The notes beneath the pieces are model-generated. The model searched no databases. It worked only from the letters and a program-made list of their open reading frames with translations, and had not been told where the DNA came from. Shown one piece after another: positions 20,244 to 56,104 of a stretch of 64,000 nt of DNA. The position numbers and the translations under genes are program-made. The stretch's first letter is position 1. Each line of letters starts with the position of its first letter. Origin of the DNA: Octopus vulgaris (taxonomy: Eukaryota); the NCBI GenBank assembly GCA_951406725.2, contig OX597833.1, forward strand, positions 20,150,001 through 20,214,000, written 5' to 3'.

Positions 20244-20791
20244 TATAAAGAAGGATAAGATTGATATCTAAATATCGATCTTATCAAGTGGCCAGCATGG
20301 GAATAAAAACCTTACAAAGGTAATAATTATTTAAAATTATAAATTAGGATATCTGAGAGATACCACCATGCTGAAATAGCAGTCAAAACCTGCCCCTAAA
20401 GCCACATTAAATGTTCATATAGCACTAGGAGAGTAGACAGAGAGACAAAATAAACTAGCAAAAAAATTTTACTGGATAATTCCAGATCCTGGATTTCTGG
20501 CTTTGCATAAGAGATGCTCTGCCTTCTTCAGTGGAATATACTCAGCACATAAATACAAATATATATATATATATATACAACATATGATATACTTACATAT
20601 ACGAACGTCGATACATACATATATATGCACGTATGTACACGACCAGCTTAAATTGCCCGCCTAACAGCTCCTCACGCGATATGGTCAGAATAAACACGGC
20701 AGTGAATATAATGATGAAATATATAAATTTATAAATAAGGATAAGATCAATATTTAAATATCGACCTTATCAAGTGGCCAGCATGGGAATA
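20244..20791 (-). mobile_element. Penelope-like/retrozyme-like non-autonomous element with ~60-bp terminal direct repeats, in (TA)n
   Basis: Direct repeats 20244-20305 and 20729-20791 (486-bp period), internal hammerhead, (TA)n on both sides. Confidence 0.7.
20479..20537 (-). ncRNA. Minimal type I hammerhead ribozyme motif
   Basis: AUUCCA-CUGAAGA-A-GGC..GCC-A-GAAA-UCCAGGA-UC-UGGAAU: 6-bp stem I, canonical core, quasi-palindromic stem III. Confidence 0.75.
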
Positions 20792-22535
20792 TATATATAT
20801 ATATATATATATATATCTTTTGCCAAAAGTGCAGGTGACAACCTCAAATATGTTTCATTTTGTTTAGGACCGCCTCAACAAAACAGAGCTTTCTCTGTAC
20901 TTGCCAAAATTAGTGATAAAAGAATTACTATATTGATATATAATAACCTACATGATATTATTCATGCTGATAGAACAAAAAAACCCTAGGTAGTTTTCCC
21001 CCACTCATTATTCCTGAAACCAGCACATACACATTTTGTAAATCAATATAACGATTCTCTTATCACTAAACTGGCATATATGAAGAAGGGTGTTTCGCCA
21101 AGGAGGTTTAATAAGACCAAAACATGCCTAGAATTGTCTGTTGTACTTGCCAGGATTACATTAAATAAAAATTAGTCATTAAGCAAATTTTTTCTTTTCT
21201 TGTACCATAAGTGTGATGGCCTTAATTTGACTCTTGTTAACTTTGCCATTTGCAATTACAAAGTAATATTCTGAAATAATGAATGACCAAATTTACTAAA
21301 ACTTATATTTCCTTAAGGCATAATTTAATGTAATCATTGAATGGGCTGCAATAGAATTATGTTGTTAGTAATTACATAAAAATCTTTTATTTTGCATTAG
21401 CATTTAGAAAGGGAAGAAATAAAAAAGAAAATTCTACTTGAATTACTTAAAAGATAATTAGGAGATGATAAGATAGATATCTATTTCTGCCAAATTTTCC
21501 TGACAGTGTACATTAGGAAACTTGCCAAACACTGCTATCTGTTGTAATTTTCAGGCGGTTGCATTCAAAGTACTTTAGCAATTGGTGCTAAAGGAAAATC
21601 AAAATGCTTTACAAAATTTGAGTTTTTGAGAAACAAACAAAACCTCAAAAGAGAGGAGACACGCTAACCAAAACTGTAGCTGATGTAAGCCTAAAGCAAT
21701 CATCTTCATTTAACTGCCATGCTTTCCATGCTGGCATGGGTTGGAAAGTTCAACAAGAGGTAGCAAGCCAGAGAGCTACACTAGGCTCCAATTGTCTGCT
21801 TTGGTATGGTTTCTATGATTGGATGCCCTTCCTAATGCCGATAAAACAAAAAGCATTTGAGCAGACATAAAATTGCAGACATGGCTGAGTGTTTAAGGAG
21901 TTCCCTTCCCAACCATATGGTTTTGGATTCAGTCTCACAGCACTGCACCTTGGGTAAGTGTCTTCTGTTATAGACCTGGGCCTACTAAAGCCTAATAAAG
22001 AAATAAATAATAGCTATCAGGCTAAAGCCATTGTGCAAACATACAACTATTCTAGAAGACCAATCTACTTAAAATCTTAACCTTTGAGCTAAGAAGATAA
22101 GTGGTTGTCAGTCTATCTTTCAAATATTGCATGCTTACCAAGATTTGAATAATGAGTGTGTTCTACTATGAATATAACAGCAGGAGCTAGTAGCTGTTTA
22201 ATCTCAAATCAGCTTTGATCCAGCAGAATTATGTCTTACAGCCATGACCATCCTGCCATTTTATCAGTTTTGTATCTAGGAATATCTATTATGTTGTTCC
22301 TTTTTCTTTAAGACAGTAGAGTGTGATTTGAGAATAGATTTGTGTGAGAAATTTGGCTGCTATTTCCTGCAGATCAAAAGACCTTACAGAGGCTTATTGT
22401 CACATGATTGAACTGAATCTTAAATGGCTAAACACTAATACTTCTTTTTTTTTTAAATAGCACTCAAAATTATTACAATGCCATCCCATAATTATATTAC
22501 TCTGTCACTCATTCTTGACATCCATCACTCACTCA

Positions 22536-22566
<31 letters not shown>

Positions 22567-23665
22567 CCATTTGCTGACCATATCATTTCTATTGGATCTC
22601 CTCACCAACAATCATGATATCATCATGTAAATGCCTATCACACATTCACTCTTACTCTTATTTTCCTCACTATCACCCTCCCACTCTTGTCACTCTGGTC
22701 CTTTTCCATAATGCTCTCCTCCAATCACCTTGCTTTGGTCCTCTTTCATCGCTGGCTCCTACCTGTTGGAGATGAGGCAATCTTACATGCTGTTGAACAA
22801 ATGAACAGAGATAATATAGGATAAGAAGATTCATTAACCTTGCCAAAGGCAAGACAACCTTTATGGTGTTAAGGTTAGTCTCACTATACTCTTAGTATAC
22901 TTAGTGGTTGGTGAATGAAAAGAAACAATGTATGACAGAGAGGTTACTTTTAGGCTTGCTGGAGTTAAGACAACCTCTCTAGTGCTAGTGCCATAATAAG
23001 CACTCAGTCTACTCTTTAAGGTTGTTGATGAATTGAGATAGAACATATCATCTCTAGTACTGTTGATAATCAAGTATGGAATGTAGTAGTAGTAGTAGTA
23101 GTGTTGGTGGTCCACTTAAGGACATACTTTGAAAATACAATATAACCAAGAAAATAAAATCGGTTGACAACAAGAAAGTTATGCATCTTCAAATAAACAA
23201 ACACACATGCTAAAAATGGAACCAACAAGACATGGCTACTAATCCATCTAGGAGGGCAGTAACTCTGAATAAGGATTAAGTTCATAACTTATCCAATCCA
23301 TGCCAGCATGGAAAAGCAGGTATAAAAATGAAGATGATTATAATCAAGAGGAATGTATTCTGAGTACTGTTGCTTTGATGTGTTTATTATCAATTTAATA
23401 AATGATTCAATGAAATAAGAGTCAAATAATTTTATGCATAAAACAAAGCTTTAACAATTTATTTTTCAATCCAAAGTCAATCTTTACAGAACAGACATGT
23501 ACTCAGAGTTATCCCAGCCATAACTATCTTATCTGGGTTTTTTGTTTGTTTGTTCATTTTATTGTATTTTTTTTTTGCTTCTTTTTTTTTCTTCAGGCAG
23601 TCCTTTTCCTAACACAAAAGATTGTGGTTTGTGGGAGATTAGTCTGCTAACTTAAGCAAATTGTG

Positions 23666-23990
23666 TGAAGGCACATGGCTTAGTGGTTTGGGTATCTGGC
23701 TCAGGATCATAAGATCATGAGTTCAATTCCCAATGGTGTGTTATGTCCTTGAGCAAGACACTTTATTTCATGTTATTCTAGTCCACTCGGCTAGCAAAAA
23801 TGAGTAGTACTTGTATTTCAATGGGCAAGCCCTGTCACACTTTGTGTCATGCTGAATCTCCCTGAGAACTATGTTATGGGTACACATGTCTGTGGAATAC
23901 TCAGCCACTTGCATGTTACTTTCCTGAGAAGGCTGTCCCATTGATCAGGTCAAATAGAACACATTGTTGTAATCAAAAGAGTGCCAGCTA
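23666..23990 (+). mobile_element. Family D SINE, long-tail variant
   Basis: GAAGGCACATGGCTTAGTGG head; similar copies at 44118-44445 (+), 13285-13520, 31028-31935 and 53710-53980 (-). Confidence 0.8.
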
Positions 23991-24064
23991 GTTATCTTTA
24001 GCAAAATTAAGCAACCATTTACAGACATCCTAACTGAATTTCCTTATGACTTGGTATAACAAAG

Positions 24065-24356
24065 AGAGTGTTTTCCCACATATTTCAATCCTGTGATTGC
24101 TTATTTCACCTATATGCCTCTATTAGGTAGAGGAATTATTAATACATCTGTCTTGGCATTAGGAAGCGCATCCAGCTGTAGAAACCAAGCCAAAACAAAC
24201 TAAGGAACCCAGAGTGTTTTCTCACATATTTCGATCCTATGATTGCTTAATTCACCTATATGCCTCTGTTAGGTAGAGGAATTATTAATACATCTGTCTT
24301 GACATTAGGAAGCGCATCCAGCTATAGAAATCAAGCCAAAACAAACTAAGGAACCC
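24065..24356. repeat. Tandem duplication, 2 x 146 bp
   Basis: 24065-24210 and 24211-24356 are near identical and span unique sequence plus a SINE start. Confidence 0.95.
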
Positions 24357-25562
24357 AGGGCGTCCCCTGGCATTGCTAGTTCCTGTCAAACCATCCAACT
24401 CATGCCATCACAGAAAACAGGCATTAAATGTTGTTGATAATGATGATGATGTCCTCATTTATCATAGGCATTTGTTGGAAAAAGAAAAACAGTGTTAAAC
24501 AAATCAGTGATAAATGAATAATAGAACATATGTAAAAAATAGATTTCGTTCCAAGACCCCATGTTGTCCTGAGTCTTATGGATGGTCGCTGGGGCCTGCT
24601 TTCACAGTCAAAGCAGAATTGTTGACTGATCGCCAATCCATGTTGGCACAGATGAATTCATGATAAGTCTAACATGGTTCACAATGAGTGTATTGCATTA
24701 TCCCAGATCAGTGAATGAATGAATAAATAATAAATCAGAATAGATGTACTGCTAGACTAAAATTGTTTGGACAACAAACTTCACTTTCTCTGTTTAGTAA
24801 AATCAACAAGTTTTGAACATTTTGTTCATTATCCAGTACAATATTTGTACACATTCAGAAAGGATCGGAGCTTTTGAATTTTTTATTATGCATGATCCTA
24901 ATGCTATTAACCTCTAGTCCATGGCTCAAAACTGTGGAACATAAATAAACATGATAAACGAGACATTAGGTATATGAACTGTTTAAAACAGTCTTTTACA
25001 AAAATATGAAAAGGTGAGCTGAGCTTAAATTTACTTTTGATTTGGTTATTTCCTGCCACTTGCTCTGCTTCTAACACATTAATCTTCCACCTCTAAATCA
25101 CTGCATGATGTATTTTCACATTTCACAGTCCAATTTTTCAAACAATGAATTCAATGATAAATCACTAAATTAAATTTACTGACTCCCTTCCATTTAGCCT
25201 TGCAAATCCAATAAACCAAGTAATTCTCTCTGATATTCTCTCTGATCGCTGCATCATCATCATCATCATCATCATCCTCATATCACCACCACCACCATCA
25301 TCATCATCAACAACTGAGCAAATGTTTCACTAGTATATAGTACTCTCACCATTATTTACATGTGTGTGTGTATCTATCCTGTTTATATTGCATACAGCCA
25401 GCTTTTGATACAAACAGCAATTTGATTCATTAAAGGTACCTTTATGTAGTTGTCAAAAAGTAGTTGGAACATCTTTGGTCTTACAGAACATCTTTGCCCA
25501 GTCAAAAGTAACCTGAGGTTAAACAATAAGTTGCAGTTTCTTGAAAGATTTTTTCAGCCAAC

Positions 25563-26359
25563 TTAACCTTTTAGCATTCAGATTACTTAAGATTAATATA
25601 CTTATCTATTCACATTCATCATCATCATTGTTTAACATTTGCCTTCCAGGCTGGCATGGGCTGGACAGTTTGTCAGGAGCCAAGCCAGGTAGAAGACTAC
25701 ACCAGGCTACTGTATCTGTTTTGGCGTGGTTTTTATGATTGGATGCCCTTCCTAATACCAACCACTCAGCAGAGTGGACTGAGTGCTTTTTACATGGTAC
25801 CAGCACAGGTGAAGACAAGGTTTTTACAGCTAGCTGTCCTTCCAAATGCTAACCACTTTACAATGTGGACTGGATGCTTTTTATGTGGGGCACCAGTATT
25901 GTTTTGAATCAATCATGCATTATCTCGTAGCTTCGAGATCTCAATGATGTGAATTTTTAGTCGTAGAATGACACTGTAGGGGTATATGTGAAAGGATCTG
26001 GATGGGTTAAACATAAACAGGTAGGATTTTTTCTTTTTTTTTTTTATGACCAGGTACCAACCTAGGCTGCAACAACAAGGTCCATCTGCCACACTTTTAA
26101 GTCCTACATCACTCTCAGAGATCCTTGATACATTCCAGGCCAGTGTCTGCAATGAAGTTGTTGATGTAAGTAGGTTCTAACAAGACTAATTTGGAGGCCT
26201 CCAGCTCAGGGTGGTGCTTGCAGTGATCAGATGGTAAAGCACCCATGTCTGATGAAACAGATCAAACACAACAACTGCCAGAATTGGACAGCACACAAAT
26301 GTCAAGAACAGATAGGGTATTTGAGCTGGATATGGTCAGTTTAAATGCTAAAGGGTTAA
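25563..26359. mobile_element. TTAA-flanked piggyBac-type MITE interrupted by a family C SINE and an RTE fragment
   Basis: TTAACCTTTTAGCATT ... AATGCTAAAGGGTTAA; uninterrupted copy at 50398-50624. Confidence 0.75.
26027..26308 (-). mobile_element. 5'-truncated RTE-like LINE 3' end with poly(A)
   Basis: Minus-strand PTYINNFIADTGLECIKDL resembles the RTE ORF C-terminus; poly(A) tail; degraded TSD ACAGGTAGG/ACAGATAGG. Confidence 0.55.
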
Positions 26360-26994
26360 ACTTTTAGATTCTAATCAATATGCAATCACTAGCTCAATCC
26401 GTCACTAATTACATTATCTATTACAACCAGTGATAAGAACAAGTAAACATGTTTATATAGTTATAAATGTAGTGCAATGTGTGTGTGTGTGTGTGTAGAC
26501 TGATTACTCATTACATTAGAAAATTACAATAAGGACCAAAAGTACTGAACACGTGCCTTATCGGTAAAAACAAACACACAAATAAACTAAATAACTCATA
26601 TTAGCTAATTGAACCTGATTACTGTTGCTGATCTAATATATGTTCAAACTCTTAAAGCTTGCAATTGTACTTTTATTTATTCATTTATTTATTTATTTAT
26701 TTAATTCCTCTCTAATCAGATGATTCCTTTTCTTCAATTCACTCAAGCAGATTATTAGAATTAAGTCATCCAGTGAGCATAATGAGGGAGGCCACATCAG
26801 CCAAAGTTATTCAATCAATACTGAACTGATTAAATGAACATAGGAATGTGAAGTAACATAGTAAGATTTTCCTTTTTAAATCTTTTTTTCCAATTGTTTC
26901 AGACACTTTGAAAAAATAAATATATTTTTTGGAAGTTTTTTTCTCTCTCTAATCATAATTATTTTTTAATATCTATTTTTTAATTTTTTAATAT

Positions 26995-27244
26995 CCTCGC
27001 CTGGCCTCCGTGCTGGTGGCACGTAAAAAGCACCATCCGAGCGTGGCCGTTCGCCAGCCTCGTCTGGCACCTGTGTCGGTGGCACGTAAAAAGCACCCAC
27101 TACACTCACGGAGTGGTTGGCGTTAGGAAGGGCATCCAGCTGTAGAAACACTGCCAGATCTGACTGGCCTGGTGCAGCCTTCTGGTTTCCCAGACCCCAG
27201 TTGAACCGTCCAACCCATGCTAGCATGGAAAGCGGACGTTAAAC

Positions 27245-27273
<29 letters not shown>
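26995..27273 (+). mobile_element. Young family C SINE
   Basis: CpG-rich, long (GAT)n tail, possible TTAATAT TSD. Confidence 0.85.
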
Positions 27274-27275
<2 letters not shown>

Positions 27276-27759
27276 AATATTTTTTTAAAGACTACTACAT
27301 TATCCAATGTGTAATTTTTTGAAGATAGTAGTATGTGATTAGGAAGAAACTTAGCTGTTATTTTTGGCAGGCAAAGTGACCATGTGGAAGCTATTTTATT
27401 CATTCTAAATACATCAATTCTGTATTTGAAGTATACACTCTGGGCCATTTCCATTTCACATTTTCTACACTTATTTATAAAACCCTGTATATTGTTGTCC
27501 TTTCAAAATATGTTTACTTCTTAAAAGTGATCAAATTCTTGTTTGCATAAAGCCTTCAACAACAGCTGTTTTACATAATTATGATAAGCCACTGCATTTC
27601 TGCAACATTCAGAGGAAATAAGAACATGCCAAACACAAAAGAGAGTAATCTATAGTCCGTTTTCTTACTCAATGCTGAGTATAAATTAAAAGTGACAATA
27701 TAAACCTGATGACAGATCCAATGTCATTTCAGTATATATATTTAAATATATACATATAT

Positions 27760-28300
27760 AGGTACAGGCATGGCTGTGTGGTAAGAAGTTTGCTTCCCAA
27801 CCACATGGTTCCGGGTTCAGTCCCACTGTGTACTACTACATCCTCAGGCCGATCAAAGCCTCTTGTGAGTAGATTTGGTAGACGGAAACTGAAAGAAGCC
27901 CATCATATATATATATATATATATTTGTGTGTACTGTATTTGTCGCCCCACCACCACCATTGCTTGACAACTGATGTTGGTGTGTTTACATCCCTGTAAC
28001 TTAGCAGTTCAGCAAAAAAAGAGAGATAGAATATGTACTAGGCTTACAAAGAATAAGTCCTGAGGTCAATTTGTTTGACTGAAGGCGGTGCTCCAGCATG
28101 GCCACAGTCAACAAATAACTGAAACAAGTAAATATATATATATATATATATATATAAATATATTATATTTATTATTCTTATCTTAAATAAGAATGTTTGT
28201 TGACAGTGACTTCAAAGTTTTGGACAGCTACAAAAGTATAGAGTAACCAATCAGATTTAATGTAAAATAGGTTTTGCTATAGGTGAACATAAAAACAAAC

Positions 28301-28354
<54 letters not shown>

Positions 28355-28804
28355 TATATATATGTATATATATATATATAAATATACATTTTTTTTCATA
28401 TATGTATATTCTTTTTCTTTTCTTTTATTCTTTTACTTGTTTCAGTCATTTGAATGTGGCCATGTTGGAGCACCGCCTTTTTAGTCGAACAAATCAACCC
28501 CAGGACTAATTCTTTGTAAGCCTAGTACTTATTCTATTGGCCTTTTTTGCTGAACTGCTAAGTTACGGGGACATAAACACACCAACATCAGTTGTCAAAC
28601 GATGGTGGGGGGACAAACACAGACACACAAACATACACACACACACATACAACAGGCTTCTTTCAATTTCTGTTTACCATATCTACTCACAAGCTTTTGT
28701 CGGCCCAAGTCTATAGTAGAAGACAGTTGCCCAAGGTGCCACACAGTGGGACTGAACCTGGAACCAAGTAGTTGGTAAGCAAGCTACTTACCACACAGCC
28801 ACTC
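27760..28804. mobile_element. Inverted pair of family A SINEs (27760-28132 +, 28415-28804 -)
   Basis: Homology to 2270-2690 in opposite orientations. Confidence 0.85.
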
Positions 28805-28894
28805 ATATATATATATATATATATATGCATACATGTATATCATCAGTAAATCATAAATCTGAAACAGAAGCACAATCTAAGTTTATATGTACGT

Positions 28895-29111
28895 ACATAC
28901 ATACATACATTACATACATACCTACATACATTACATACATAACATACATACATACATTACATACATACATTACATTACATACATACCTTACATACATAAC
29001 ATACATACATACATACATTACATACATACATTACATACGTATATTACATACATACATACATTACATTACATACATTACATTACATACATTACATTACATA
29101 CATTACATACA

Positions 29112-29142
<31 letters not shown>

Positions 29143-29402
29143 CATTACATACATTACATACATACATTACATACATACATTACATACATACATTACATAC
29201 ATACATTACATACATACATTACATACATTACATACATTACATACATACATACATTACATACATAACATACATACATTACATTACATACATACATTACATA
29301 CATTACATACATACATTACATACATACATTACATACATACATTACATACATACATTACATACATACATTACATACATTACATACATACATACATACATAC
29401 AT
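28895..29402. repeat. Compound (TACA)n/(TTACA)n microsatellite
   Basis: Read directly from sequence. Confidence 0.95.
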
Positions 29403-31195
29403 CAGTAATCTTGGTAATTAACTCAGTAGCACTCTGGTGTGTATTTGGCTAACAGGGTACTGAGGAAGAATACCTGTGTTCATCATTATCTAAAAACCAG
29501 TCAACAGAACAAGCAACACAACATTAACTAGTTAGATGCTATTAAGCACTGCATAAATTCAGTGTATATAGCAACAAACGTTGCACATATAAAGCTGTGT
29601 AAAATGCAATGGAAGACTATGAAAGGAGCTGAAATTTTGTTCAAATTAAACAGCATCTCCATGCTATTCATATTCTTAGACACACACAAAGACACACACA
29701 CACTTTCAGCAGAAGTGCTGGAAGCCTCCTGTAGTTTATCTGTAATTTATTTATTCAATATACCCATGATGGTAAAATCAAGAACGTTGAGTATCCTGAG
29801 GTGCCAACATGACAATGTTCAGAATTCTCAAGGTTACAATGATGAGAACAAAACTAACATCATATAAAGCCAGGGCTCACCACTCTTAATATCATTTCCT
29901 TATCACAGCATATATTGCAATTCCAATATTTGGATGCATGTATTTCCTATGGGCATGCTGGTTTCCATACATTATATAAATGATCTTATTTCCAAGTGTA
30001 GTTTACCTTCTGATACTTAGGGGTCCTACTCATTTTACAAAATATTTTTTAAGAATTAAAGTATTTCAAAAATAAGAAATAATATATTATGGTTAAAAAT
30101 ATTTTTGAATGAAATAAAACTGCATTCACATTTGCATAATTCCCATATTCATATTCAATGTTTGAATTAGTTACATGTCATTTACACAACTTAAAAAAAA
30201 ATACAAGGTGCATTCCAGAAGTTTTGAGAAATTTTTAGGAGAGGCAGTTATGACTGTCCTAGATTATTGTGAGTTTAGTATATCATTACTATCTATACAT
30301 CTAATAAGCTGACCTGCCAACTGAGGTGGTGGGGGAGCAATGACAAAGTGGGATCCACCCCATGTGAAACTTTTACGGGGAGTGCGGCACTTTTAGGTCT
30401 GCTATATAAAGCTTATATAGGATGTATTGGTGCAGGGCTGGTGGCAAACACAAGGGCTACCCTGAGCAGCCCACACTCTAGCAACGCTACTGGATAACAG
30501 AACAAAAACATTATATATCTAAGATGCTGTTTTCATTACAAACAACAATAATATTCCTATCAACCACACCTTACAATTGATGTCATATTCTCTGTTCCTA
30601 ATTACAAGTGAAGAAAATAAATAAATAAATAAATAAATAAATAAAATTAGTAAAAACACCAGTGAGAAAGCTAAACATTCATGTATACACAGATATATAT
30701 AACCATGTACAGTTCTTCATCCTCATTACAGCAAATAAACTTTACCAATTTTCTGAACCTAATATTAAAATATAAAAAAAAAATTAGGGACTAAAAAAAG
30801 TAACTTTCACTTCAAAACAGTTTATAGAGGCCACAAAATTCCAAGTGTAGGTGGATAAGTCTTTTGATTCCATAGCACCATAAACTTCATAATTTTTTCC
30901 CCAGTAAAATGTTAATAGATTCTCTTTTCAAAAGAAACTTTAATAACTAGATTATGTGAACTGGGTTTAGTTCACTGCTGCATATATATACATATATATG
31001 AACACACATTAAAAAAAAGAAAAAACACCACTCTGTCAGTTATAAACACAAGTGTTGCAGCTGATCTGATCAAGGGAACAAGCTGCTCATAAAATTAACA
31101 TGCAAATGGCTGAACACTCCACAGATGAGTAATTTTAACATAGTTCTCAAGACGATTCAACATGACACAGAATCTGACAAGACTGGCTCGTTGAA

Positions 31196-31793
31196 GGCAG
31201 TGAGCTGGCAGAATCGTTGGCATGCCGGGCGTAATGCTTAGCGGTATTTTGCCCGTCACTACGTTCTGAGTTCAAATTCCGCCAAGGTCGACTTTGCCTT
31301 TCATCCTTTCAGGGTTGATAAATTAAGTACCAGTTACGCACTGGGGTTGATATAATCGACTTAATCCATTTGTCAGTCTTTGTTTTTCCCCTCTGTGTTT
31401 AGCCCCTTGTGGGTAGTAAAGAAATAGGTATTTCATCTGCCACTATGTTCTGAGTTCAAATTCTGCCAAGGTCGACTTTGCCTTTCATCCTTTCGGGATC
31501 GATTAAATAAGTACCAGTTACGCACTGGGGTCGATGTAATTGACTTAATCCATTTGTCTGTCCTTCATTGTCCCCTCTGTGTTTAGCCCCTTGTGGGTAG
31601 TAAAGAAATAGGTATTTCATCTGCCGCTACGTTCTGAGTTCAAATTCTGCCACGGTCGACTTTGCCTTTCATCTTTTCGGGGTCAATTAAATAGGTACCA
31701 GTTATGCACCGGGGTCGATGTAATCGACTTAATCCATTTGTCTGTCCTTGTTTGTCCCCTCTATATTTAGCTCTTTGTGGGCAGTAAAGAAAT
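31196..31793 (+). mobile_element. Family B SINE with triplicated ~184-bp body, nested in a family D SINE
   Basis: 17-bp TSD AAGACT(G/A)GCTCGTTGAA at 31179-31195 and 31794-31810; three units each with GTCGACTTTGCCTTTCATC. Confidence 0.9.
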
Positions 31794-32254
31794 AAGACTA
31801 GCTCGTTGAAATACAGGTACTACTCATTTTTGCCAGCTGAGTGGACTGGAGCAACGTGAAATAAAATAAGGGACACAGCATACCACTGGATATTGAACTC
31901 ACAACCTTATGATCATGAGCTGAAAACCCTAACCACTAGCCATGGGCCTTCACGCAGCACACACATGTGGCCCAGTGGTTATGGCGTTCCACTTTCAGTT
32001 GCAAGATTCTGGTTTCAGTTCTCAGACCAGGCAGTACATTGTGTTCTTGAGCAAAACACCTCATATCAATAATTAAAACACACCCACACACATATACATT
32101 TATTTACATACAATATACATAAGAAGTTTGCATCCCAACAACATGGTATCAGGGGTCACTCCCTCTGCAAGGCACTTTGGGCAAGTGTCTTCTACTATAG
32201 CTTCAACCCAACCAAAGCCTTGTGAGTGGATTTGGTACAGAGAAACTGAAAAGC

Positions 32255-32287
<33 letters not shown>

Positions 32288-32292
<5 letters not shown>

Positions 32293-32490
32293 ATCCAAAT
32301 ATGAAAACACAAAGAGAAAACACAACAACGCGAGGACATGGAGCAAGTATAGTGTTATTGGATAATCAGGAAAAGAAAGGAGGATTTAACGTTTCGAGAG
32401 GAGCTCTTCGTCAGAAGCATAGAAAAAGGAAAGGTCCAAGGAAGGGAAGACGGAGAAAGAAAATCGCCAACGATACACACGTGGTCACAT
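32288..32490 (-). mobile_element. ~200-bp hammerhead-bearing mini-element in the (TA)n of a family A SINE
   Basis: Homologous end to end with 55909-56104; TA repeats on both sides. Confidence 0.8.
32384..32418 (-). ncRNA. Minimal hammerhead motif, partly degraded
   Basis: GCUU-CUGACGA-A-GAG-cuccu-CUC-GAAACGUU-AAAU. Confidence 0.6.
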
Positions 32491-32719
32491 ATATATGTGT
32501 GTGTGTGTGTGGTGTTTGTCACTGATCACCATCGCTTGACAACCAGTGTTGGTGTGTTTATGTCCCCATAACTTAGCAGTTTAGCTGTAAAAAAGACCAG
32601 GCTTTAAAAGAAAATAAGATTTGGGGTTGATTCATTCCATTAAAATTTTTTTAAGGAGATGCCCCAGTATGGCCACAGTCTAATATCTGAAACAAAAGAA
32701 AACGATAAAAAATATGCAT

Positions 32720-33115
32720 AGGCACAGGAGTGGCTGTGTTGTAAGTAGCTTGCTTACCAACCACATGGTTCCGGGTTCAGTCCTACTGTGTGGCACATTG
32801 GGCAAGTGTCTTCTACTATAGCCTCGGGCCAACCAAAGCCTTGTGAGTGGATTTGGTAGACAGAAACTGAAAGAAGCCTGTCGTATATATATTTAAGTAT
32901 ATATCTGTGTGTCTGTGTTTGTCCCCCCCACCCGCAACATCGCTTAACAACCGATGTTGGTGTGTTTACATCCCCATAACATAGCTGTTCAGCAAAAGAG
33001 ACCAATAGAATATGTACAAGGCTTCCAAAGAATAAGTCCTGGGGTCGATTTGCTCGACTAAAAAGCGGTGCTCCAGCATGGCCGCAGTCAAATGACTGAA
33101 ACAAGTAAAGAGAGA
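32720..33115 (+). mobile_element. Full-length family A SINE
   Basis: Homology to 2270-2690. Confidence 0.9.
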
Positions 33116-33138
33116 GTATACCCACAAACATGCATATA

Positions 33139-33188
<50 letters not shown>

Positions 33189-33699
33189 TGCATAGACATG
33201 CTTATACACATGTATACTTACATACATGCATACATATGTACACACACACACACATACTGACCACTAATGTTGCTGCTATAAATTTATATTACTGTTCTAC
33301 AATGATCGGCCTGGTTGGTTGGTTGGTTGGGTTGGTTGGTTTTTGGTGAAAATACAGAGTTGATGATGAATTACATTTAACACAACATTGGCAGTCCCAG
33401 CTTCAATTAATCTCTCATTCAGTGGATGTTGCTGGGCTGTTGGCCTGTTATTGCTGTTACTGTTGTTGTTATTGTTTAGATAACAAAACATATAAGCTAT
33501 AGATTTACTGAAGAAGAATTATTCAGTCTAACGTAAATACAATTTCTTTCCCTTCTCTCACACTCTCTTCCCTGAGGAATTCAATAATTTTAGTAAACAC
33601 TAAAATAGATTTTTGTTTTTTATTCAACAACAGTAATTAATATATTGTTTGTTGTATTCAATATATCAAATGAATTTCCAGAGTAACCATGTAACTATA

Positions 33700-34340
33700 A
33701 GTGCAGGCATGGGGTGTGTGGTTCAGAAGCTTGATTTCCAGTTGTGAGAACTTGGGTTCAGTCCCACTGTGTGGTACCTTGAGCAAGTATCTTCTGCTAT
33801 AGCCCCCAGGGCTGACCAAAGCCTTCAGAGCAGATGTGATAGATAGAACTGAAAAAAAACCCTTCATATGTATGCATTCATATATGTGTGTATGTGTATG
33901 TATGTATGTATGTATGTATGTATGTATGTATGTGTGTATGTGTGTATGTGTGTATGTATGCATGCATGTATGTATGTGTGTGTGTATGTGTGTGTGTATA
34001 TGTGTGTGTATGTATGTGTGTGTATGAATGTGTGTATGAATGTGTGTGTATGAATGTGTGTGTGTATGAATGTGTGTGTGTATGAATGTGTGTGTGTATG
34101 AATGTGTGTGTGTATGAATGTGTGTGTGTGTGTGTATGTATGTGTGTGTGTATGTGTGTGTGTGTCTTTGTGTTGTCCTCAACAACCACTTGACAACTGG
34201 TGTTGGTTTGTTTCTATCTCTGTAACTTAGCGGTTCGGCAAAAGTGACTGTTAGAATAAGTACCAGAGTTTTTTTTTAAATGTCGTGGGGTGGAGTTAAT
34301 TTATTTCCCTAAACCCTTTAAGGCAGTGGCCCAACATGTC
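33700..34340 (+). mobile_element. Family A SINE with ~280-bp expanded (TATG)/(TG) middle
   Basis: SINE 5' and 3' halves flank the microsatellite at 33885-34165. Confidence 0.8.
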
Positions 34341-36270
34341 TGAAACTAGTAAAATATAAAAGATATTTTTATAGTTCAATGTTAGGTCAACTCTGATTGA
34401 CCAGACCTATGATCAAAAAGCATTTCAATCATAATCGTCCTGTCTTTGTAGAGGTATTTTATCTAATTTATCCATCTACATTTAAGATGAGAGAATGTAA
34501 TTTAAAGAAGATTAGCATTCAGACTACACTGTCAAATTTGGTGCTTATTTATTCACATTATTTGGAGTTAATCATGCATTATTTCATAGCTTCAAGATTT
34601 CGATGATGTGATTGTTTAGTTTTAGAATAACATTGTAGGGTGGGTGTGAGAAGCAGGATCTGACCAGTTTGAACATAAAACAGGTAGAATATCTGGGCTG
34701 AATATGGCTGGTTTAAATGCTAAAGGGTTAAGCTGCTCTTTCTAGACAGTTGAGTGACAGCATGGTAGGTCACTCAGTGGCTTGAAAAACCTATGTATGG
34801 AGGAATGCAAAGAATGTGAAGAATGCAAAGATATTTTTAATAATAATATTATTGTCATTAAACCAGTCTTTCACTGAACACTCAGAAAGCTCCTTCAAAG
34901 AATATACAATGTTATCGATTTGTTGTCATTGTTTTTAATGACCTCTTTTCTATGCTCACATGGGTTGGACAGAATTCATTGTGGCAGATTTTTCAGGGCC
35001 AGATACTGCTCCTGATGCCAGCCCTCACCAGTTTCCAAGTAGGGTAATATTTCCCCCTTGCCCATACAAGTTATTGTGAGAGGTTGGAAATGAAGGACAC
35101 TTCTTGCATGAGTAACACTTGTTTACAAATATTACATAAAGTCAAGGCAAGGAGACAGTAACATACACACACTACACACACTGGGTTTCTTCGTTTCCAT
35201 CTACCAAATCCACTCACAGGGCTACAGTAGAAGTCAATTGCCCAAGGTATCACACAGTGGGACTGAAACTGAAACTTTGTGGTTCGGAGGCAAACTTCTT
35301 ACCATACAGTTATGCCTATGCCTAACCAATATAAAAACATTCCTATCTTTAAAAAGGCACGCAACTTTTTACCATATAGTAAATTAGTATCACCTGTAAC
35401 TTACTGAATTCTTTGACTAGGTTACAACTGAAGTTATTCAATGGAGAATACACTTAGGTATCTCCTCCTGTCCCAAAGAAGGAAAAGAATATTTGTTTAG
35501 TATACAGTGCTAATATTATCATTGTGGTCAACTTTGACCAATGGTCAAAGATATTCCAGTTATGATTATGGTATAGCTTTTTACCTTTTTTTTAATCATT
35601 TTACTTGTTGCTGTCATTGGACTTCAGCCATACTAGGGAGCCATCTCAAAGTGTTTAGTTGAGCAAATCAACACAAGTACTTATTTTTAAGTTTGGTACT
35701 TACTCTATCAGTCTCTTTTGTCAAACCACAATGTTATGGGGACATACACAAACCAATGGTGATGTGTGGCTTAGTGGTTAGGATGTTGGACTCATAACTG
35801 TATGATTAAGGTTTTGATTCCTGGACTAGGCAATGTGTTGTATTCTTGAGTAAAACTCTTCATTTCACATTGTTCCCGTCCATTCAGCAGGCAAAATGAG
35901 TATTTCTGCGACAGACTGGTGTCCCATCCAGTGGGGAGTATATATGCTAAGGAATCCTGGAAACTGGCCCTATCAAGAAGTGGTGAGGTTCAAATATGAG
36001 CACACAAAGACAGACACACTTGCACTATACACAGTTTCCATCGACCAAATTCACTTGTAAGACATTGGTTGGTCCAGGGCTATAGTAGAAGATACTTGCC
36101 CAAGGTACCATGCAGTGGGACTGAACTGGAAACAACGTGGTTGCGAAATGAGCTTTTTAACTATACAACCATGCTTGTGCTCATATATATAAAACACTAT
36201 TTAATGTTACGGAGATGTACTTGCATAGCAAGTGACCTGATCTGAGATCATGTGCTCAAACGAAAACAAA

Positions 36271-36492
36271 TGCAGCATGGAAGGGGTTTATAAGCCATTT
36301 AAGAAACACACAAAATCCGTTAGGTTCACTTCAACATTTAAATTTAATTTGTCGAAATATTTTCGTCGTCAGTGAACAAGTTGCGGTCTCAAAGCAACGA
36401 AAATATTTTGACAAAATAAATTTAAATGTTGAAGCGAATCTAACGGATTTTGTGTGTTTCTTAAATGGCTTATAAACACCTTCCACGCTGCA
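36271..36492. repeat. 96-bp-arm inverted repeat (foldback) of a Penelope-like terminal region
   Basis: 36271-36366 vs reverse complement of 36397-36492: 90/96 identical by manual alignment, 30-nt spacer. Confidence 0.95.
36368..36412 (+). ncRNA. Minimal type I hammerhead motif with G3-C8 swapped core
   Basis: GUCA-GUGAACA-A-GUUGC-loop-GCAAC-GAAA-AUAU-UU-UGAC, followed by AAUAAA. Confidence 0.65.
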
Positions 36493-37481
36493 ATTATTTA
36501 ACGTAATCTTTCTTTACAATGGTAAGCATCATCATCATCATCAGATAACATCCGTTTTCCATGCTGGCATAGTTTGGACAGTTTGACAGGAGCTGGCAAG
36601 CCAGAAGACTGCACCAGGCTTCACTGTCTGTTTTGGCAGGGTTTTTACAGCTGGAGGCCCTTCCTAATGCCAACCACCTTACAGAGTGAAGTGAATGCTT
36701 TTCACATGACACCAGCACTGGTGAGGGGTGTGAATTGTGGGAGATTTAGTTGCTATTTCTAGCTGTTTGAAATACCAATAGAGGCTCCCACAATGAGTTA
36801 GTATAGTTTACAATGTTGAACTGTACTTCCCCACAATATCTATAATATTGTTGGGTAAACTGCTATTGTTAAAAATATCATCTTTTTGATTAGTAGCTTG
36901 GTACCCTAAACAACCTGACCAGTTCTGACTCTTCTCTATTTTCTAACAGCATTAATTTAATCCACACCATCACCACCACTAATGTAATATAAACTTGCGA
37001 AAGTATAGAATCTAAAACCATAAAGAATCCAAGCTATTCTCTTGCATCATATCACAATTTCAAGAAAAAACTATTATTATGCAACTCTCCATCTTTAATT
37101 AGATATTAAATATTCTCTAGTACAATGTAAATGGGGAATTATTCAGTGTGTTAAAAATATACAGTTCAGAAAGATCATTTTATATTTGACAAAAAGATAA
37201 AGATGTACGTCTCTGTAGCATGTAGCTTTGATCTTGTATTAAGCTAATGAGTCTCCCCGAGGACAGAACAGGAAGGAGATAACTCTATTCATGCTAACAA
37301 TCCACAAATATCTTACATGTTACAGTTATTGTTGCATAACTTTAGATTAACAATTAACTCTGATCAAGAAGACCTATGATCAAAGACTACAGCTGCATGT
37401 TTAAGAAGTTGACTTCTCAACAATGTGGTTTCAGGTTCTATCCCACTGCGTGGCATCTTGGGAAAGTTGTTTTCTATTATA

Positions 37482-39784: not shown

Positions 39785-40323
39785 AAGCGTGGGGCATAAA
39801 GATCTCCCACATTTGGAGGAGACACCATGTGGACGTAAGTAGAAGTAGAGAGGCGGGACAAGTTTCATTTGGAAGGCTAAGATTTACCATTTTTGTATTC
39901 ATTACTAATTACTCAAAAACTTCTTTTTTTTTTAAGGTTCAACCATTTTCGTATTCATCATTACTTACTCAAAAACTTTAAGGGGAGACATAGGGTAGTC
40001 AGCAAAATCACCAGATTTAAGCCCTCGTGACTTTTTCCTTTAAGGAATAAGTTTTCTGACATCATCCTCGAACTCTTGAGGATTTGAAAGAAAGAATTCA
40101 TGAAGAAATCAATGCAATACCACCTGAGATGACACAGAGAGTCATGGAGAACTTCTGGAACGACTGCATCAATGTATTGCCAACAACTGTCACCATTTGC
40201 CTAATAAAGTTTTTAAACTGTTTTTTTATGTATTTTTCAGAAACATGATAAAATTTTTCCCAGATGGTTGTGCTCTCTTTTTATATTCATTCACAACATG
40301 GGGGATCTTTATGCCCCGCCCTT
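39785..40323 (+). mobile_element. Deleted Tc1/mariner element nested in a TTAA-type MITE (~39726-40492)
   Basis: TIR GGGGCATAAAGATC(T/C)CCCA; internal relic SPDLSPRDFFL..PRTLEDLKERIHEEINAIPPEMTQRVMENF. Confidence 0.8.
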
Positions 40324-47565: not shown

Positions 47566-48004
47566 TGTAGGAAGTGAGGTTGGCACTGGATGGGTGCCTC
47601 ACAATTCCTTACATAGTTGTGGAAAGGAAAATAGCGGGAACAAGAATCTCCAAACAAATAACAATAATAATTTATTTCTCCTGAATAAACATTTCATCTC
47701 TGGACATCGGTTGCCTGGACACCTTGGTGTGCAAGAAGCAGCAGGGTTGGTAGTTAGACACAAAAACATGAAGGCATTTTCACAGACCCGCAACATTGCT
47801 CGCTGTCAGATTTCCAGCTCCACGGAGCTGGTCTAAGTTGCGTCCTGTCTGGTCAGAAGCCGGGGCTGAAGAGAGAGAATAGCGGTCGAGCCTAGCTGCT
47901 GCTGATGACTGCACATGCACGTAAGGGGCTTCCGGAAGGCTCTAATCCTTGCGCATGCATGGATGAAAATCCCAAAATGGCATCTGGAACCAGGCGTCAC
48001 TACA
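47566..48004. mobile_element. Solo LTR, Ty3/Gypsy-type TSD
   Basis: TGTAG..CTACA termini, 4-bp TSD TGTC at 47562-47565 and 48005-48008; interrupts an older repeat. Confidence 0.85.
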
Positions 48005-48787
48005 TGTCCTTCCTATTTTAAGACAATGTAGTGTAATCTGAATGGAAATTTGACTGCTATTTCTAAAAAGTTGAGCAACAGTATAGAGGTAACTTTAGTG
48101 GCTTGAAGTTTTAGGTATAATGTAAACAGAAAACTGTTTTCTGAGGAGACTAGAGTACCAATCAATACAATGCCTGACTCCAAATGCAAATTCACAACAA
48201 CCAAGTCTTGAAATTTTTTTCCATTGTAGCCTCAAAGATGATAAACATTAACAAACTTAAAAAAGCTACTGCATGACATTTTTTCAAGATTAGTTTGCCA
48301 AAGAGTTTGAAAATTTGAAAATTGTATAAAGAGAAAGCATCAAGCAAAAACAAAAATAATTTCTTTGATTGAAAGAGAAAGATTTAAATAAAACAAAAAT
48401 TGGTGAAAAATTACTTAAAAAAAAAAATAAGAAGAAGAAATTTTATTATTGTAGAAAACACACCAGCACAAATGGTAAAGCAGTGGAGTGAATTATTGGC
48501 AGTATTTAATTTTGTCACTCAACACTCAGAGTTCTAACCCTGTTCAGTTTGATAAAACAGGAAACAAGTGTGTACTGTGGCCAATTGAGTCATCTACATC
48601 CTTTCTTTTACAAAAGTTGAAACTTTGAACAAATATAAAAAAAATGTCCTAAATATTGGAGATGTTTTGTTTTTTATTACTTGGCCAATATTATTTTTAA
48701 ATGAAAAATATTGAGATTATATTTCCCCAGAGAAATGAAAGCTAAAGTCAACCAATGTAAAATTAGAATTCTAAACTAAGACCACTA

Positions 48788-50397: not shown

Positions 50398-50624
50398 TAA
50401 CTCTTTAGTATTTAAACTGGCCGTATCCGACCCAAATATCCTACTTACTTTATGTTCAAACCAGCCAGATCCAGCCTCTCACACCTACCTTACAATGTAA
50501 TTCTAAAACTATGCAATCACATCATTGAAATCTCAAAGCTATGAGATAATGAATGATTAATCCAAAACAATATCAATAAAAAAGCATTATATTTGATACA
50601 GAAATCTGAATGCTAAAGGGTTAA
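50398..50624. mobile_element. TTAA-flanked piggyBac-type MITE
   Basis: TTAA-CTCTTTAGTATT ... AATGCTAAAGGG-TTAA; other copies at 34512-34731 and 59375-59959. Confidence 0.8.
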
Positions 50625-51872: not shown

Positions 51873-52032
51873 GTACAGGAGTGGCTGTGTGGTAAGTAGT
51901 TTTGCTTATCAACCACATGGTATCAGTTTCATTCCCACGAAGTGGCAGCTTGGGCAAGTGTCTTCTACTATAACCTCTGGCTGACCAAAGCCTTGTGAAT
52001 GAATTTGGTAGAAGGAAACTGAAAGAAGCCCG

Positions 52033-52105
<73 letters not shown>

Positions 52106-53118: not shown

Positions 53119-54015
53119 TCTTCAAAATTAGAATGTTTTTTCAAATACAATGGAAGATGAAACAATTTCTTTTATTGTTTCACATTTAGATTTGTATACA
53201 CTCACATCAAAACTAAAGTACACTACCAATATTGGTAATGCTATCAGGAAACATATATTACATAAAACATGATCCTTTCTACTGTAGGCACAAGGGCTGA
53301 AATTTGATGGAAGGAGCTGGTTGAGTACATCAACCTCAGTGCTAAACTAGTTCTTATTTCATTGACCGTGAAAAGATAAAAGGCAAAGTCGACCTTGGTG
53401 GTATTTGAACTCAGAATGTAGAGCTAGAAGAAATGCCACTAAGCATTTTGTCCAGCGTAGTAATGATTCTGCCAGCTCACCACCTTATATATGTATGTAC
53501 TCGGATGATGTAATTATTAAACCTCTTCATTTAAAATAACACATATTTGAAAAAGTATGTACACAATTTCAAATACCATGAAAGATAGAAAATTATTTCT
53601 TTCTATGTTTAATGCTTAAATTTGTTTATACATCTACAATATTCAGGTGTGATGCTCTTTGAATTAGACTAATTTTATATTTGAAATATATGCAAATACA
53701 ATCCTTTAATTACGACAATAAGGGTTCTGGTTGATGTGAGCAAGAGAATAGCCTGCTCGGGAAATTAATGTAAGTGGCCAAGCACTCCACAGACACAGGT
53801 ACCCTTAACATAGTTCTCAAAGAAATTCAGCATGATACAGAACCTGACATGGTTGGTCCTTTGAAATACAGGTACTACTCATTTTTGCCAGATGAGTAGA
53901 CTAGAGTAATGGGAAATAAAGTGTCTTGCTCAAGGACACAATGAGCTGCTGGGAATCGATTTCATGAGCTTACAGTCATGAACCAAATATATATATATAT
54001 ACACATAAATATATA

Positions 54016-54813
54016 CTCTTTACTCTTTAACTTGTTTCAGTCATTTGACTGTGGCCATGCTGGAGCACTGCCTTTAGTCAAGCACATCAACCCCAGGACT
54101 TATTCTTTGTAAGCCTAGTACTTATTCTATCAGTCTCTTTTGCTGAAGCGCTAAGTTACGGGGATGTAAACACACCAGCATCGGTTGTCAAGTGATGTTG
54201 GGGGGACAAATACAGACACAAACATATACACACATACATACATATACATATATACGACAGGCTTCTTTCAGCTTTCATCTGCCAAATCCACTCACAAGGC
54301 TTTGGTTGGTCCAAGGCTATAGTAGAAGACACTTGTCCAGGGTGACACACAGTGGGACTGAACCTGGAACCATGTAGTTAGTAAGCAAGCTACTTACCAC
54401 ACAGCCACTCCTATGCCTATATATCATCATCATCATCATTTAGCGTCCGTTTTCCATGCTAGCATGGGTTGGACGGTTCTACTGGGGTCTGTGAAGCTAG
54501 AAGGCTTCATCAGGCCCAGTCAAATCTGGCAGTGTTTCTACAGCTGGATGCCCTTCCTAACGCCAACCACTCCGTGAGTGTAGTGGGTGCTTTTTACGTG
54601 CCACCCGCACTGGTGCCAGACAGAGCTGGCAAACGGCCACGAACGGATGGTGCTTTTTATGTGCCACCGGCACGAGGGCCAGGCGAGGCTGGCAACGGAC
54701 ACGAAACGGGGCGGTGCTGGCAACGGTCGCGAAACGGAAAGTTCTCTTACATGCCACCGGCACTGGTAACACATCTGCAATTTCCATTGATCGATTTCCA
54801 TTGATCGATTTCG

Positions 54814-54815
<2 letters not shown>
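54016..54815 (-). mobile_element. Adjacent family A (54016-54419) and young family C (54424-54815) SINEs
   Basis: Homology to the reference copies. Confidence 0.85.
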
Positions 54816-54866
<51 letters not shown>

Positions 54867-54913
54867 TTGAATAATGAGAGAGGTGGAAGATGGAAGATAT
54901 AAGAATGTTTATT

Positions 54914-55021
54914 AATCACTACAACTGTTTCAACCCATCTAGTGTCGATCCTTCATGGGTGGCATACTTATCAACTGGTTCAGGAGTATCTGATGGAGTT
55001 GATGTGTCTCTTCGGGTGATT
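54914..55021 (-). ncRNA. Type I hammerhead motif with long stem II insert, core CCGAAGA
   Basis: AAUCAC-CCGAAGA-GACaCAUC..GAUGgGUU-GAAA-CAGUUG-UA-GUGAUU-AAUAAA. Confidence 0.65.
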
Positions 55022-55908
55022 ACAAGATGTATCTCATCAAAATAACAACTGTTCCACAAAATATCTTCTCAGTTTGTTTATACGAAAACAGCAAATTAAA
55101 AGATACAGTTTCATTTTTATATAGGATCAATAATAAATAACAGATGCAAAAAGTAAGAAATACACAATGCAGCAAAAAAAGTATTAAACATAACCATTAA
55201 CAGATATGGATATTTAAAAGCCTTCGCTTACGTTGTATGGCGCACATACATTCGATCATACAAACATCCAAGAATATATAAGCACACACACACATGGTTT
55301 GGTGTACATATGCTCACACGTTGAATTAAATATATCATCATCATCATCGTTTAACATCCGTTTTCCATTCTAGCATGGGTTGGATGGTTCGACAGGGGTC
55401 TGGGAAGCCAGAAGGCTGCACCAGGCTCCACTGTGATCTGGCAGTGTTTCTACAGCTGGATGCCCTTCCTAACGCCAACCACTCCTTGAGTGTAGTGGGT
55501 GCTTTTTACGTGCCAGGCGAGGCTGGCAATGGCCACAATTGGTTGGTGCTTTTTACGTGCCACCAGCACAGGGATCACAACTGCAATTTCCATTGATTTT
55601 TGGTGTTGATGTACTTGACTCAATAGGTCTCCTCAAGCACAGGGTCAAAACGGTGTTTCTTTACTTGCCACCTGCACAGGAGTCAGTCCAGCGACACTGG
55701 CAACTGCCAGGTGCCAGTCATAGGATTGGTTCAATTTAGACATTGGTTTGCTTGCCTAGCCAGAGGGGTGGCATCATTCAAAATTTCAAACGATGCAAAG
55801 TGCATTGTGACTAGCAATGTATAATATCTGATGGTTTAATTGATCGTGTGATATATACATACATACCCAATGCACGTGTGCACATGCTTTTATATATATA
55901 TATATAAC

Positions 55909-56104
55909 ATGTGACCTCGTGAGCACCGCCAGCAATTTTTTTTCCTCTGTCTTCCCTTCTCAGGATCTTTCATTCTCCTTTGTTTCTGATGAAGAGCTCC
56001 GCTTGAAACGTTAAACCCTCCTTCCCTGAGCGTCCAATAATACTTTATTTGTTCCACGTCCTCGCGTTGCTGTGTTTTTTTGTGTTTTCTTGTTTGGATT
56101 AACT
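55909..56104 (+). mobile_element. ~200-bp hammerhead-bearing mini-element in (TA)n
   Basis: Homologous to 32288-32490; TA repeats on both sides. Confidence 0.8.
55982..56016 (+). ncRNA. Minimal type I hammerhead motif
   Basis: GUUU-CUGAUGA-A-GAGC-ucc-GCUU-GAAACGU-U-AAAC with palindromic ACGU stem III. Confidence 0.7.

What the first reader, a model, noticed from the sequence alone, without database searches (positions are those of the whole stretch)
20479..56016. Four unrelated hammerhead mini-element families within 36 kb, sharing an extra A after A9
Seen: five motifs (20479-, 32384-, 36368+, 54914-, 55982+) with unrelated stems except the 32384/55982 pair. All have a self-complementary stem III (AUCC-A-GGAU, ACGU, AAUAUU, ACAGUUGU), four have an unpaired A between A9 and stem II, and four lie in or beside (TA)n. 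Inference: this genome may hold a large, diverse, little-annotated set of dimer-dependent ribozyme retroelements favouring TA microsatellites. The three copies on the putative host-sense (minus) strand all carry core or stem lesions, which hints at selection against pre-mRNA cleavage, but n is too small to conclude.
Basis: partly seen in the sequence, partly recalled or inferred. Interest (0 to 1): 0.7.

Follow-up and report, generated by a model that had tools for sequence, protein, structure and literature searches.

The report
Ordinary Penelope-type hammerheads, octopus-like genome
The five motifs are real copies of four very common repeats carrying a predicted self-cutting RNA (hammerhead) of a kind already described from Penelope-like jumping genes; inside genes such copies point either way about equally often, so they likely do little harm to host transcripts.

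Summary
The five motifs are real type I hammerhead folds from four high-copy families, but of a published kind. One (54914) was misread: its core lies about 60 nt further upstream, around a long stem II, and the family is the 3' end of a decayed Hydra-clade Penelope-like element (PLE). The 20479 family is a 486-nt circularly permuted non-coding unit (retrozyme-like). The 36368 family shows the PLE inversion-plus-tail scar in 19 of 19 inverted pairs. The 32384/55982 family is a fixed-end 200-nt element in (TA)n. The 'shared extra A' is not one trait: a true 9a base in two families (mostly G in one), half of a stem II mismatch in one, absent in one. The 9a base, palindromic stem III and (TA)n targeting are all in print. 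The strand idea failed: in 1.0 Mb inside genes, 36 sense versus 33 antisense copies, intact 13 of 32 versus 11 of 31. Two of the three minus-strand copies are not lesioned. Mildly new: family-wide C4 and G3-C8 cores and long stem II inserts. The scan has reported this kind many times on other DNA of this genome.

The parts
20243..20788 (-). Family C: more-than-unit copy of a 486-nt non-coding, circularly permuted unit, with a terminal direct repeat of about 60 nt; (TA)n on both sides and one (TA)n inside
20479..20537 (-). Family C hammerhead: 6-bp stem I, C3-G8 core, A opposite A at the base of stem II, odd palindromic stem III with one central base, predicted cut after AUC; matches the family majority
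32289..32492 (-). Family A, second subfamily: fixed-end element of about 200 nt, (TA)n at both ends
32384..32418 (-). Family A minimal hammerhead; core intact, 9a = A, one stem I pair broken (the only real lesion among the three minus-strand copies)
36207..36367 (-). Family B inverted, 5'-truncated arm that carries the optional 3' tail of about 60 nt
36368..36495 (+). Family B forward arm without the tail; hammerhead at 36368-36412 with G3-C8 core, 9a = A here (G in most copies), 5-bp stem II, AAUAUU stem III
54863..55331 (-). Family D: 5'-truncated 3' end (3' UTR/pLTR) of an old Hydra-type PLE; 3' end beside a TA-rich tract
54913..55022 (-). Family D hammerhead as correctly parsed: 7-bp stem I, core at 55009-55015 (C4 in this copy), no 9a base, long stem II insert with inner hairpins, 8-nt stem III, predicted cut after GUA
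55907..56103 (+). Family A, first subfamily: fixed-end element of about 200 nt between (TA)n tracts
55982..56016 (+). Family A minimal hammerhead; canonical-looking core that differs from the family majority (C4, C7) by two C-to-T changes at CpG sites
   Evidence: CpG decay is inferred
6224..6276 (-).

Best explanation
The five motifs are type I hammerhead folds in copies of four repeat families that were likely spread by Penelope-like element (PLE) reverse transcriptase and GIY-YIG endonuclease into (TA)n tracts. Family D (54914) is the truncated 3' end of a decayed Hydra-type PLE (shown by endonuclease remnants upstream in longer copies). Families A, B and C encode nothing and likely borrow PLE proteins in trans: C is a 486-nt circularly permuted unit, probably copied from a circular or tandem RNA; B shows the PLE inversion-and-tail scar; A has fixed ends. 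In the parent elements the ribozyme would cut tandem or read-through transcripts, working as a dimer through the palindromic stem III or with help from the PLE protein (inferred from published work, not tested here). A lone copy inside an intron would therefore be nearly silent, which fits the absence of strand bias; after insertion the copies decay neutrally, mainly at CpG sites.
For: Shown: intact PLE ORFs with hammerheads behind them in this genome; a 778-aa ORF between two direct hammerhead copies 2863 nt apart in L208 and L210; hammerheads at a fixed distance behind ORF ends in four other families (41 of 62, 20 of 26, 4 of 5, 6 of 28 hits; loci were picked by endonuclease queries, so these shares are enriched by design). 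Pfam RVT_1 plus GIY-YIG in 2 of 4 ORFs tested; the other two carry Hydra motifs. Family D: endonuclease C-terminal remnants 384-421 nt upstream on the same strand in 3 of 37 hits (L114, L116, L117; E 6e-17 to 2e-6), with CxCX5C, CxxC and CxH in L116, and 1.1-1.3 kb of colinear DNA homology among the longest copies. Family B: 19 of 19 inverted pairs have the tail on exactly one arm (p = 2e-6), as described for PLE insertions (PMC8557442; PMC11167929). Family C: 5 loci read 240-460 nt through the unit junction and most of the 20 junction-crossing rows end at one fixed point; longest stop-free frame 75 aa; its hammerhead layout matches Hydra hammerheads with a mismatch at the base of stem II. Family A: 30 of 30 top copies are followed by (TA)n; 40 of 41 matches to a long query start at one point. 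No strand bias. A variable stem II pair of family B occurs in all four combinations (12, 7, 7, 6), as independent CpG decay predicts. A PLE hammerhead was reported to need the PLE protein to cleave (PMC11167929).
Against: No ORF was linked to families A, B or C: 1 of 50, 1 of 67 and 2 of 41 hits lay behind an endonuclease, each time behind another family's 3' end across a (TA)n tract, and a promising link for A in L028 failed. Which PLE moves them is unknown. No cleavage, expression or circular RNA was shown. The monomer folds are no more stable than shuffles (z from -1.4 to +0.1), and the predicted minimum-energy fold of the 54914 copy does not form the hammerhead stem II. C4 cores were reported to lower activity in vitro (PMC3088659). 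The strand test (43 unpaired copies, sense share 0.38-0.69) excludes only a strong bias.
Confidence: 0.85

Rival explanations
1. All four families are 5'-truncated ends (solo pLTRs) of autonomous PLEs whose long copies were simply not sampled; none is a separate non-autonomous element.
For: True for D. Genome searches score only the best 40 of thousands of candidates. Two family A copies share about 30 nt beyond the usual 5' end.
Against: A has a sharp 5' end; B starts within about 30 nt upstream of stem I in the copies that are not inverted; C runs through its own junction with no coding frame. Random truncation, as in D (extents 300-1290 nt), is not seen.
Confidence: 0.15
2. Sense-strand copies cleave host pre-mRNA and are purged or inactivated by selection.
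For: A preprint reports depletion of retrozymes from Xenopus introns relative to intergenic DNA (10.64898/2026.07.22.740005; orientation not tested in the parts read). The sample here cannot exclude a mild bias.
Against: Sense 36 versus antisense 33 (p = 0.81); unpaired copies 23 versus 20 (p = 0.76); strict intact folds 12 versus 11; intact 13 of 32 versus 11 of 31 (p = 0.80; 6 partial copies set aside). Two of the three window copies are not lesioned, and the host strand of the window is unproven.
Confidence: 0.07
3. The motifs are chance matches to a short consensus in AT-rich DNA.
For: Monomer folding energies are unremarkable; Rfam shows no hammerhead match.
Against: 0 hits in 1.0 Mb of shuffled DNA against 24 real; family majorities keep all core bases and stems; a 3-8 pair is kept as C-G, U-A or G-C across 32 clusters (the descriptor demands this pair, so only the non-canonical forms being family-wide counts as evidence); fixed position behind PLE ORFs.
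Confidence: 0.01

Closest known systems
[quoted passage not shown]
   Same: Unpaired base between 9 and 10.1, palindromic helix III, short helix I, many heterogeneous families, mostly solo copies, pairs on opposite strands 100-700 bp apart. Family A has the same layout as the listed mollusc motifs (9a, CG palindrome, U17).
   Different: Family-wide C4 (A) and G3-C8 (B) cores were not in the parts read (U3-A8 was). Density here extrapolates to about 190,000 motif-bearing and 67,000 intact copies against thousands reported there.
Hydra-clade PLEs, including Hydra-1_Obim (Craig et al. 2021, PMC8557442; read: passages, section 11, supplement part 2 and search hits)
   Same: (TA)n insertion, C-terminal GIY-YIG endonuclease with CxCX5C, CxxC and CxH, hammerhead in the 3' end with long palindromic stem III, often a mismatch at the base of stem II, inverted truncated copies and a one-sided tail.
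   Different: Listed Hydra hammerheads have short loop 2 (3-10 nt) and a U4 core; family D and the 778-aa family have stem II spans of 55-75 nt, the latter mostly with C4. Family C's mismatch is A with A, not U with U.
Non-LTR (animal) retrozymes (Cervera and de la Pena 2020, PMC7229834, passages read; Li et al. 2026 preprint 10.64898/2026.07.22.740005, parts 1-3 of 5 read; its supplements are closed)
   Same: Family C: non-coding unit of a few hundred bases with one type I hammerhead, in more-than-unit and tandem copies, alongside active PLEs.
   Different: Circular RNA not shown here. Families A and B show fixed ends without permutation, more like SINE-type or solo-pLTR derivatives.
PAc (Poseidon) element of Anolis (Frangieh et al. 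2024, PMC11167929; parts 1-2 of 4 read)
   Same: Two reverse-transcription start sites giving an optional tail; both strands cut and extended; AT-rich targets; engineered G3-C8 core partly active.
   Different: PAc is autonomous and tested in vitro; family B is non-coding, has a natural G3-C8 core and is untested.

Membership tests
PLE minimal type I hammerhead | Conserved core with a 3-8 pair, G5, A6, A9, G12, A13, A14, A15.1-U16.1 and non-G at 17 | tested here: met
   All five window copies; position 4 is C in the 54914 copy and in the family A majority
PLE minimal type I hammerhead | Unpaired base between 9 and 10.1 | tested here: inconclusive
   Met in A and B; in C it faces a second A (mismatch); absent in D
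PLE minimal type I hammerhead | Palindromic helix III allowing a dimer | tested here: met
   Sequence of all four families; cofolding pairs stem III between two copies only for C
PLE minimal type I hammerhead | Position in a pLTR behind an RT/GIY-YIG ORF | tested here: inconclusive
   Met for D and four other families; not found for A, B, C
PLE minimal type I hammerhead | Self-cleavage (weak, as dimer or protein-assisted) | not testable with these tools
   Needs in vitro assay
Hydra-clade PLE (family D) | C-terminal endonuclease with CxCX5C linker, CxxC and CxH | tested here: met
   L116, partly L117 and L114
Hydra-clade PLE (family D) | RWK and DKT motifs and RT domain | tested here: inconclusive
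   No family D copy reaching the RT was held; the motifs are present in the 727-aa ORF that found the remnants
Hydra-clade PLE (family D) | Insertion in (TA)n | tested here: inconclusive
   6 of 16 parsed 3' ends followed by TA repeats; old family, 80-87% identity
PLE-mobilised insertion (family B) | Inverted 5'-truncated copy and a tail at only one end | tested here: met
   19 of 19 inverted pairs
Non-LTR retrozyme (family C) | Non-coding unit with one type I hammerhead in tandem or more-than-unit copies | tested here: met
   486-nt unit, junction read-through in 5 loci
Non-LTR retrozyme (family C) | Expressed as circular RNA | not testable with these tools
   No reads could be laid
Non-LTR retrozyme (families A and B) | Head-to-tail tandem or permuted units | tested here: not met
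   Fixed ends; neighbouring copies are separated by (TA)n (L028, L042)

The most novel reading that the evidence does not exclude
Octopus-type PLEs and their parasites use a class of conditional hammerheads: cores weakened on purpose (C4, G3-C8, a mismatch at the base of stem II) and long branched stem II inserts that act as a docking site for the PLE protein, so that cutting happens only inside the transposition complex. That would explain why some 10^5 copies sit in introns in either orientation unpunished, and why standard CUGANGA searches undercount them.
Probability: 0.2. Interest if true: 0.55.

Novelty: new member of a known kind. Interest (0 to 1): 0.22.

Why it matters
Mostly it does not change what is known: hammerheads in PLE ends and in small non-coding hitch-hikers are described. 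Three things are useful. The intron strand test, for which I found no paper or earlier scan note, says that these ribozymes are largely harmless as single copies in pre-mRNA. Young PLE families with intact ORFs carry C4 cores, so CUGANGA descriptors miss the masters and catch mainly CpG-decayed copies. And the genome offers many natural core variants (32 clusters in 2 Mb) for cleavage assays.

Tried and rejected
Rfam scan: no hammerhead family among the matches shown. Link of family A to a Hydra ORF through the upstream DNA of L028: rejected; no other copy carries that upstream part, and 3 of its 29 diverged relatives were fetched and none leads into a family A hammerhead or has an endonuclease match. 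Links of A, B, C to ORFs in 2 Mb of loci: only chance nestings. Host gene of the window: no convincing Pfam match in 12 + 73 candidate frames, no clear multi-exon model, no homologue for a candidate last exon at 47783-48010(-), atlas search not answered; no RNA holder listed and no reads could be laid, so host strand and expression stay open. Covariation within family B: none, all four combinations occur. Folding energy as evidence: uninformative. Lunse et al. 2017 (RNA Biol 14:1499, about small PLE hammerhead variants cleaving as dimers) is not held; I saw only its citation, and it may already cover the C4, G3-C8 and mismatch variants. Searches for those variants in print: (U4C known from a viroid; G3-C8 only as engineered or in one unread paper, PMC3884650, listing only). 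Octopus hammerhead searches. One masking script timed out and one crashed; both were rerun.
Full report
Setting. The window is G000:C20:20150001-20214000 of a 2.8-Gb animal genome in 227 contigs, 36% GC and rich in microsatellites. I take it to be octopus-like; that rests on recalled repeat sequences and genome size, on the likeness of its PLEs to a published Octopus family, and on earlier scan notes, not on a direct test.

Observation. All five motifs are in the sequence. A strict type I descriptor finds 2 in the window and none in 40 shuffles. A second one, allowing C4, long stem II and a base on either side of stem II, finds 2 against 0.05 in 20 shuffles, and 24 in 1.0 Mb of other DNA against 0 in one shuffle. 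Profiles recover all five and a sixth, decayed copy at 6224-6276. Each motif belongs to a family with thousands of candidates (only the best 40 are scored and 30 fetched, so these sets lean towards the window's copy). The window's 7 profile hits compare with 4.4 expected from the sample (P = 0.16): the cluster is the genome's normal background, which extrapolates to about 190,000 motif-bearing and 67,000 intact copies.

What each family is. Family A (55982, 32384) is a 200-nt element with sharp ends: 30 of 30 top copies are followed by (TA)n, and 40 of 41 matches to a 931-nt query begin at one point. Its majority core has C at position 4 (25 of 30); the canonical look of the 55982 copy comes from two C-to-T changes at CpG sites (inferred). 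Family B (36368) has a G3-C8 core in 32 of 32 parsed copies and G, not A, as the extra base in 29. It often occurs as an inverted pair, and in 19 of 19 pairs exactly one arm has a tail of about 60 nt (p = 2e-6). Inverted truncated copies with a one-sided tail are the described PLE scar (PMC8557442), traced to two start sites of reverse transcription (PMC11167929). Family C (20479) is a 486-nt non-coding unit; the window copy is more than one unit long, 5 loci read 240-460 nt through the junction, and most junction-crossing copies end at one point, as expected of copying from a circular or tandem RNA (inferred). Its second A, before GAAA, is in 27 of 27 parsed copies; the two As form a mismatch at the base of stem II, as U-U does in many Hydra hammerheads, which also share the odd palindromic stem III. 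Family D (54914) was misread: the majority shows a 7-bp stem I and a core at 55009-55015, joined to GAAA by a long stem II with inner hairpins and no extra base. Its copies are 5'-truncated at many points, the longest sharing 1.1-1.3 kb, and 3 of 37 hits have Hydra-type endonuclease remnants 384-421 nt upstream.

The machinery exists. GIY-YIG has 6136 first-look candidates, many in open frames of 781 aa; two Hydra-type families have 17665 and 10365 candidates with open frames of 778 and 727 aa, the second at 99% identity. Two of four ORFs tested match Pfam RVT_1 and GIY-YIG; the other two have no Pfam match but carry Hydra motifs (RWK or a close variant, DKT, CxxC, CxH). In L208 and L210 a 778-aa ORF lies between two direct hammerhead copies 2863 nt apart, with C4 and a long stem II. 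Clustering descriptor hits in 2 Mb gave 32 clusters: positions 3-4 are CU in 17, CC in 8, UU in 6, GU in 1; a true 9a base in 5, a base on both sides in 9 (A-A 4, U-U 5), none in 18; stem II spans over 40 nt in 10 (17 clusters are single sequences). So the extra A is not a shared hallmark. No ORF was linked to A, B or C, and one candidate link failed.

Strand test. I took 100 stretches of 10 kb from genes of known strand: 80 between or next to colinear myosin or kinase exons and 20 centred on internal kinase exons, assumed to be intragenic. Strict intact folds: 12 sense, 11 antisense. All family copies at E under 1e-5: 36 and 33, p = 0.81. Without the 26 copies in inverted pairs: 23 and 20, p = 0.76, 95% interval of the sense share 0.38-0.69; in the 80 safer stretches 18 and 19. 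Intact among full-length copies: 13 of 32 and 11 of 31, p = 0.80, 6 partial copies set aside; singleton families are intact by construction, on both strands alike. A strong purge of sense copies is excluded, a mild one is not. In the window only 32384 has a lesion among the three minus-strand copies, and the host strand is unproven.

How it likely works. Shown: the folds, the families, the PLE link of D, the PLE scar of B, the permutation of C, TA targeting, no strand bias. Inferred: insertion by PLE target-primed reverse transcription at (TA)n; use of PLE proteins in trans by A, B and C; cutting of precursor RNA by dimeric or protein-assisted hammerheads, as published for related motifs (weak dimer activity, PMC4209133; no cleavage without protein, PMC11167929). 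Single intronic copies would be nearly inert and then decay; a variable stem II pair in B shows no covariation. Against: monomer folds are not stable beyond shuffles and the predicted fold of the 54914 copy differs from the hammerhead; nothing was assayed.

Known or new. The 9a base, palindromic helix III, heterogeneity and abundance are stated in PMC4209133, with mollusc examples laid out like family A. (TA)n insertion and hammerheads of Hydra PLEs, with an Octopus family, are in PMC8557442. Retrozymes as PLE dependants are in PMC7229834 and a 2026 preprint. I did not find family-wide C4 or natural G3-C8 cores or long stem II inserts of PLE hammerheads in the texts read, but Lunse et al. 2017, figures, one supplement file of PMC4209133 and the preprint's supplements were out of reach and may hold them. 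Earlier scan notes report the same kind repeatedly in this genome (unchecked, not counted as support). Verdict: real, a new member of a known kind, with the one distinctive hypothesis refuted at the power available.

Noticed in passing
window 47780-48012 (-): A GC-rich, single-copy stretch after a possible splice acceptor: 22 codons, an in-frame TAG, then 53 more open codons. It could be a last exon with two acceptors or with stop read-through. No homologue found; if it is a last exon, the motifs at 20479-36412 lie beyond that gene.
   Followed up: partly
L208:3668-6531, L210:4458-7321: Young Hydra-type PLE (778-aa ORF) whose hammerhead has a C4 core in 38 of 47 clustered copies and a stem II span of about 55 nt.
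   Followed up: partly
L201-L203: A 727-aa Hydra-type PLE with many 99%-identical copies, often in tandem at about 3355 nt spacing; probably recently active.
   Followed up: partly
L195: Five identical hammerheads with a C4 core in one 10-kb stretch about 40 kb beyond the window, probably a tandem retrozyme array.
   Followed up: no
L038:1100-1500: Local tandem array of short pieces of family B, each with a full G3-C8 hammerhead, which could form dimers in cis.
   Followed up: no
L281:7899-8030, L285:3741-3878, L147: Three further unrelated hammerhead clusters with A opposite A at the base of stem II, as in family C.
   Followed up: no
window 54960-55090 (-): The family D majority repeats a stem-III-like word three times at spacings of about 60 nt, perhaps traces of an old internal duplication; this is what misled the first parse.
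   Followed up: no
window 3571-4280, 14090-14578, 39964-40280: Broken frames that look like Tc1/mariner transposase pieces (by eye; no Pfam match).
   Followed up: no
L193 about 127,550-150,200 in extended window coordinates (-): Candidate exons of a C2H2 zinc-finger gene on the minus strand 60-90 kb beyond the window's end, in loci L197-L199.
   Followed up: no
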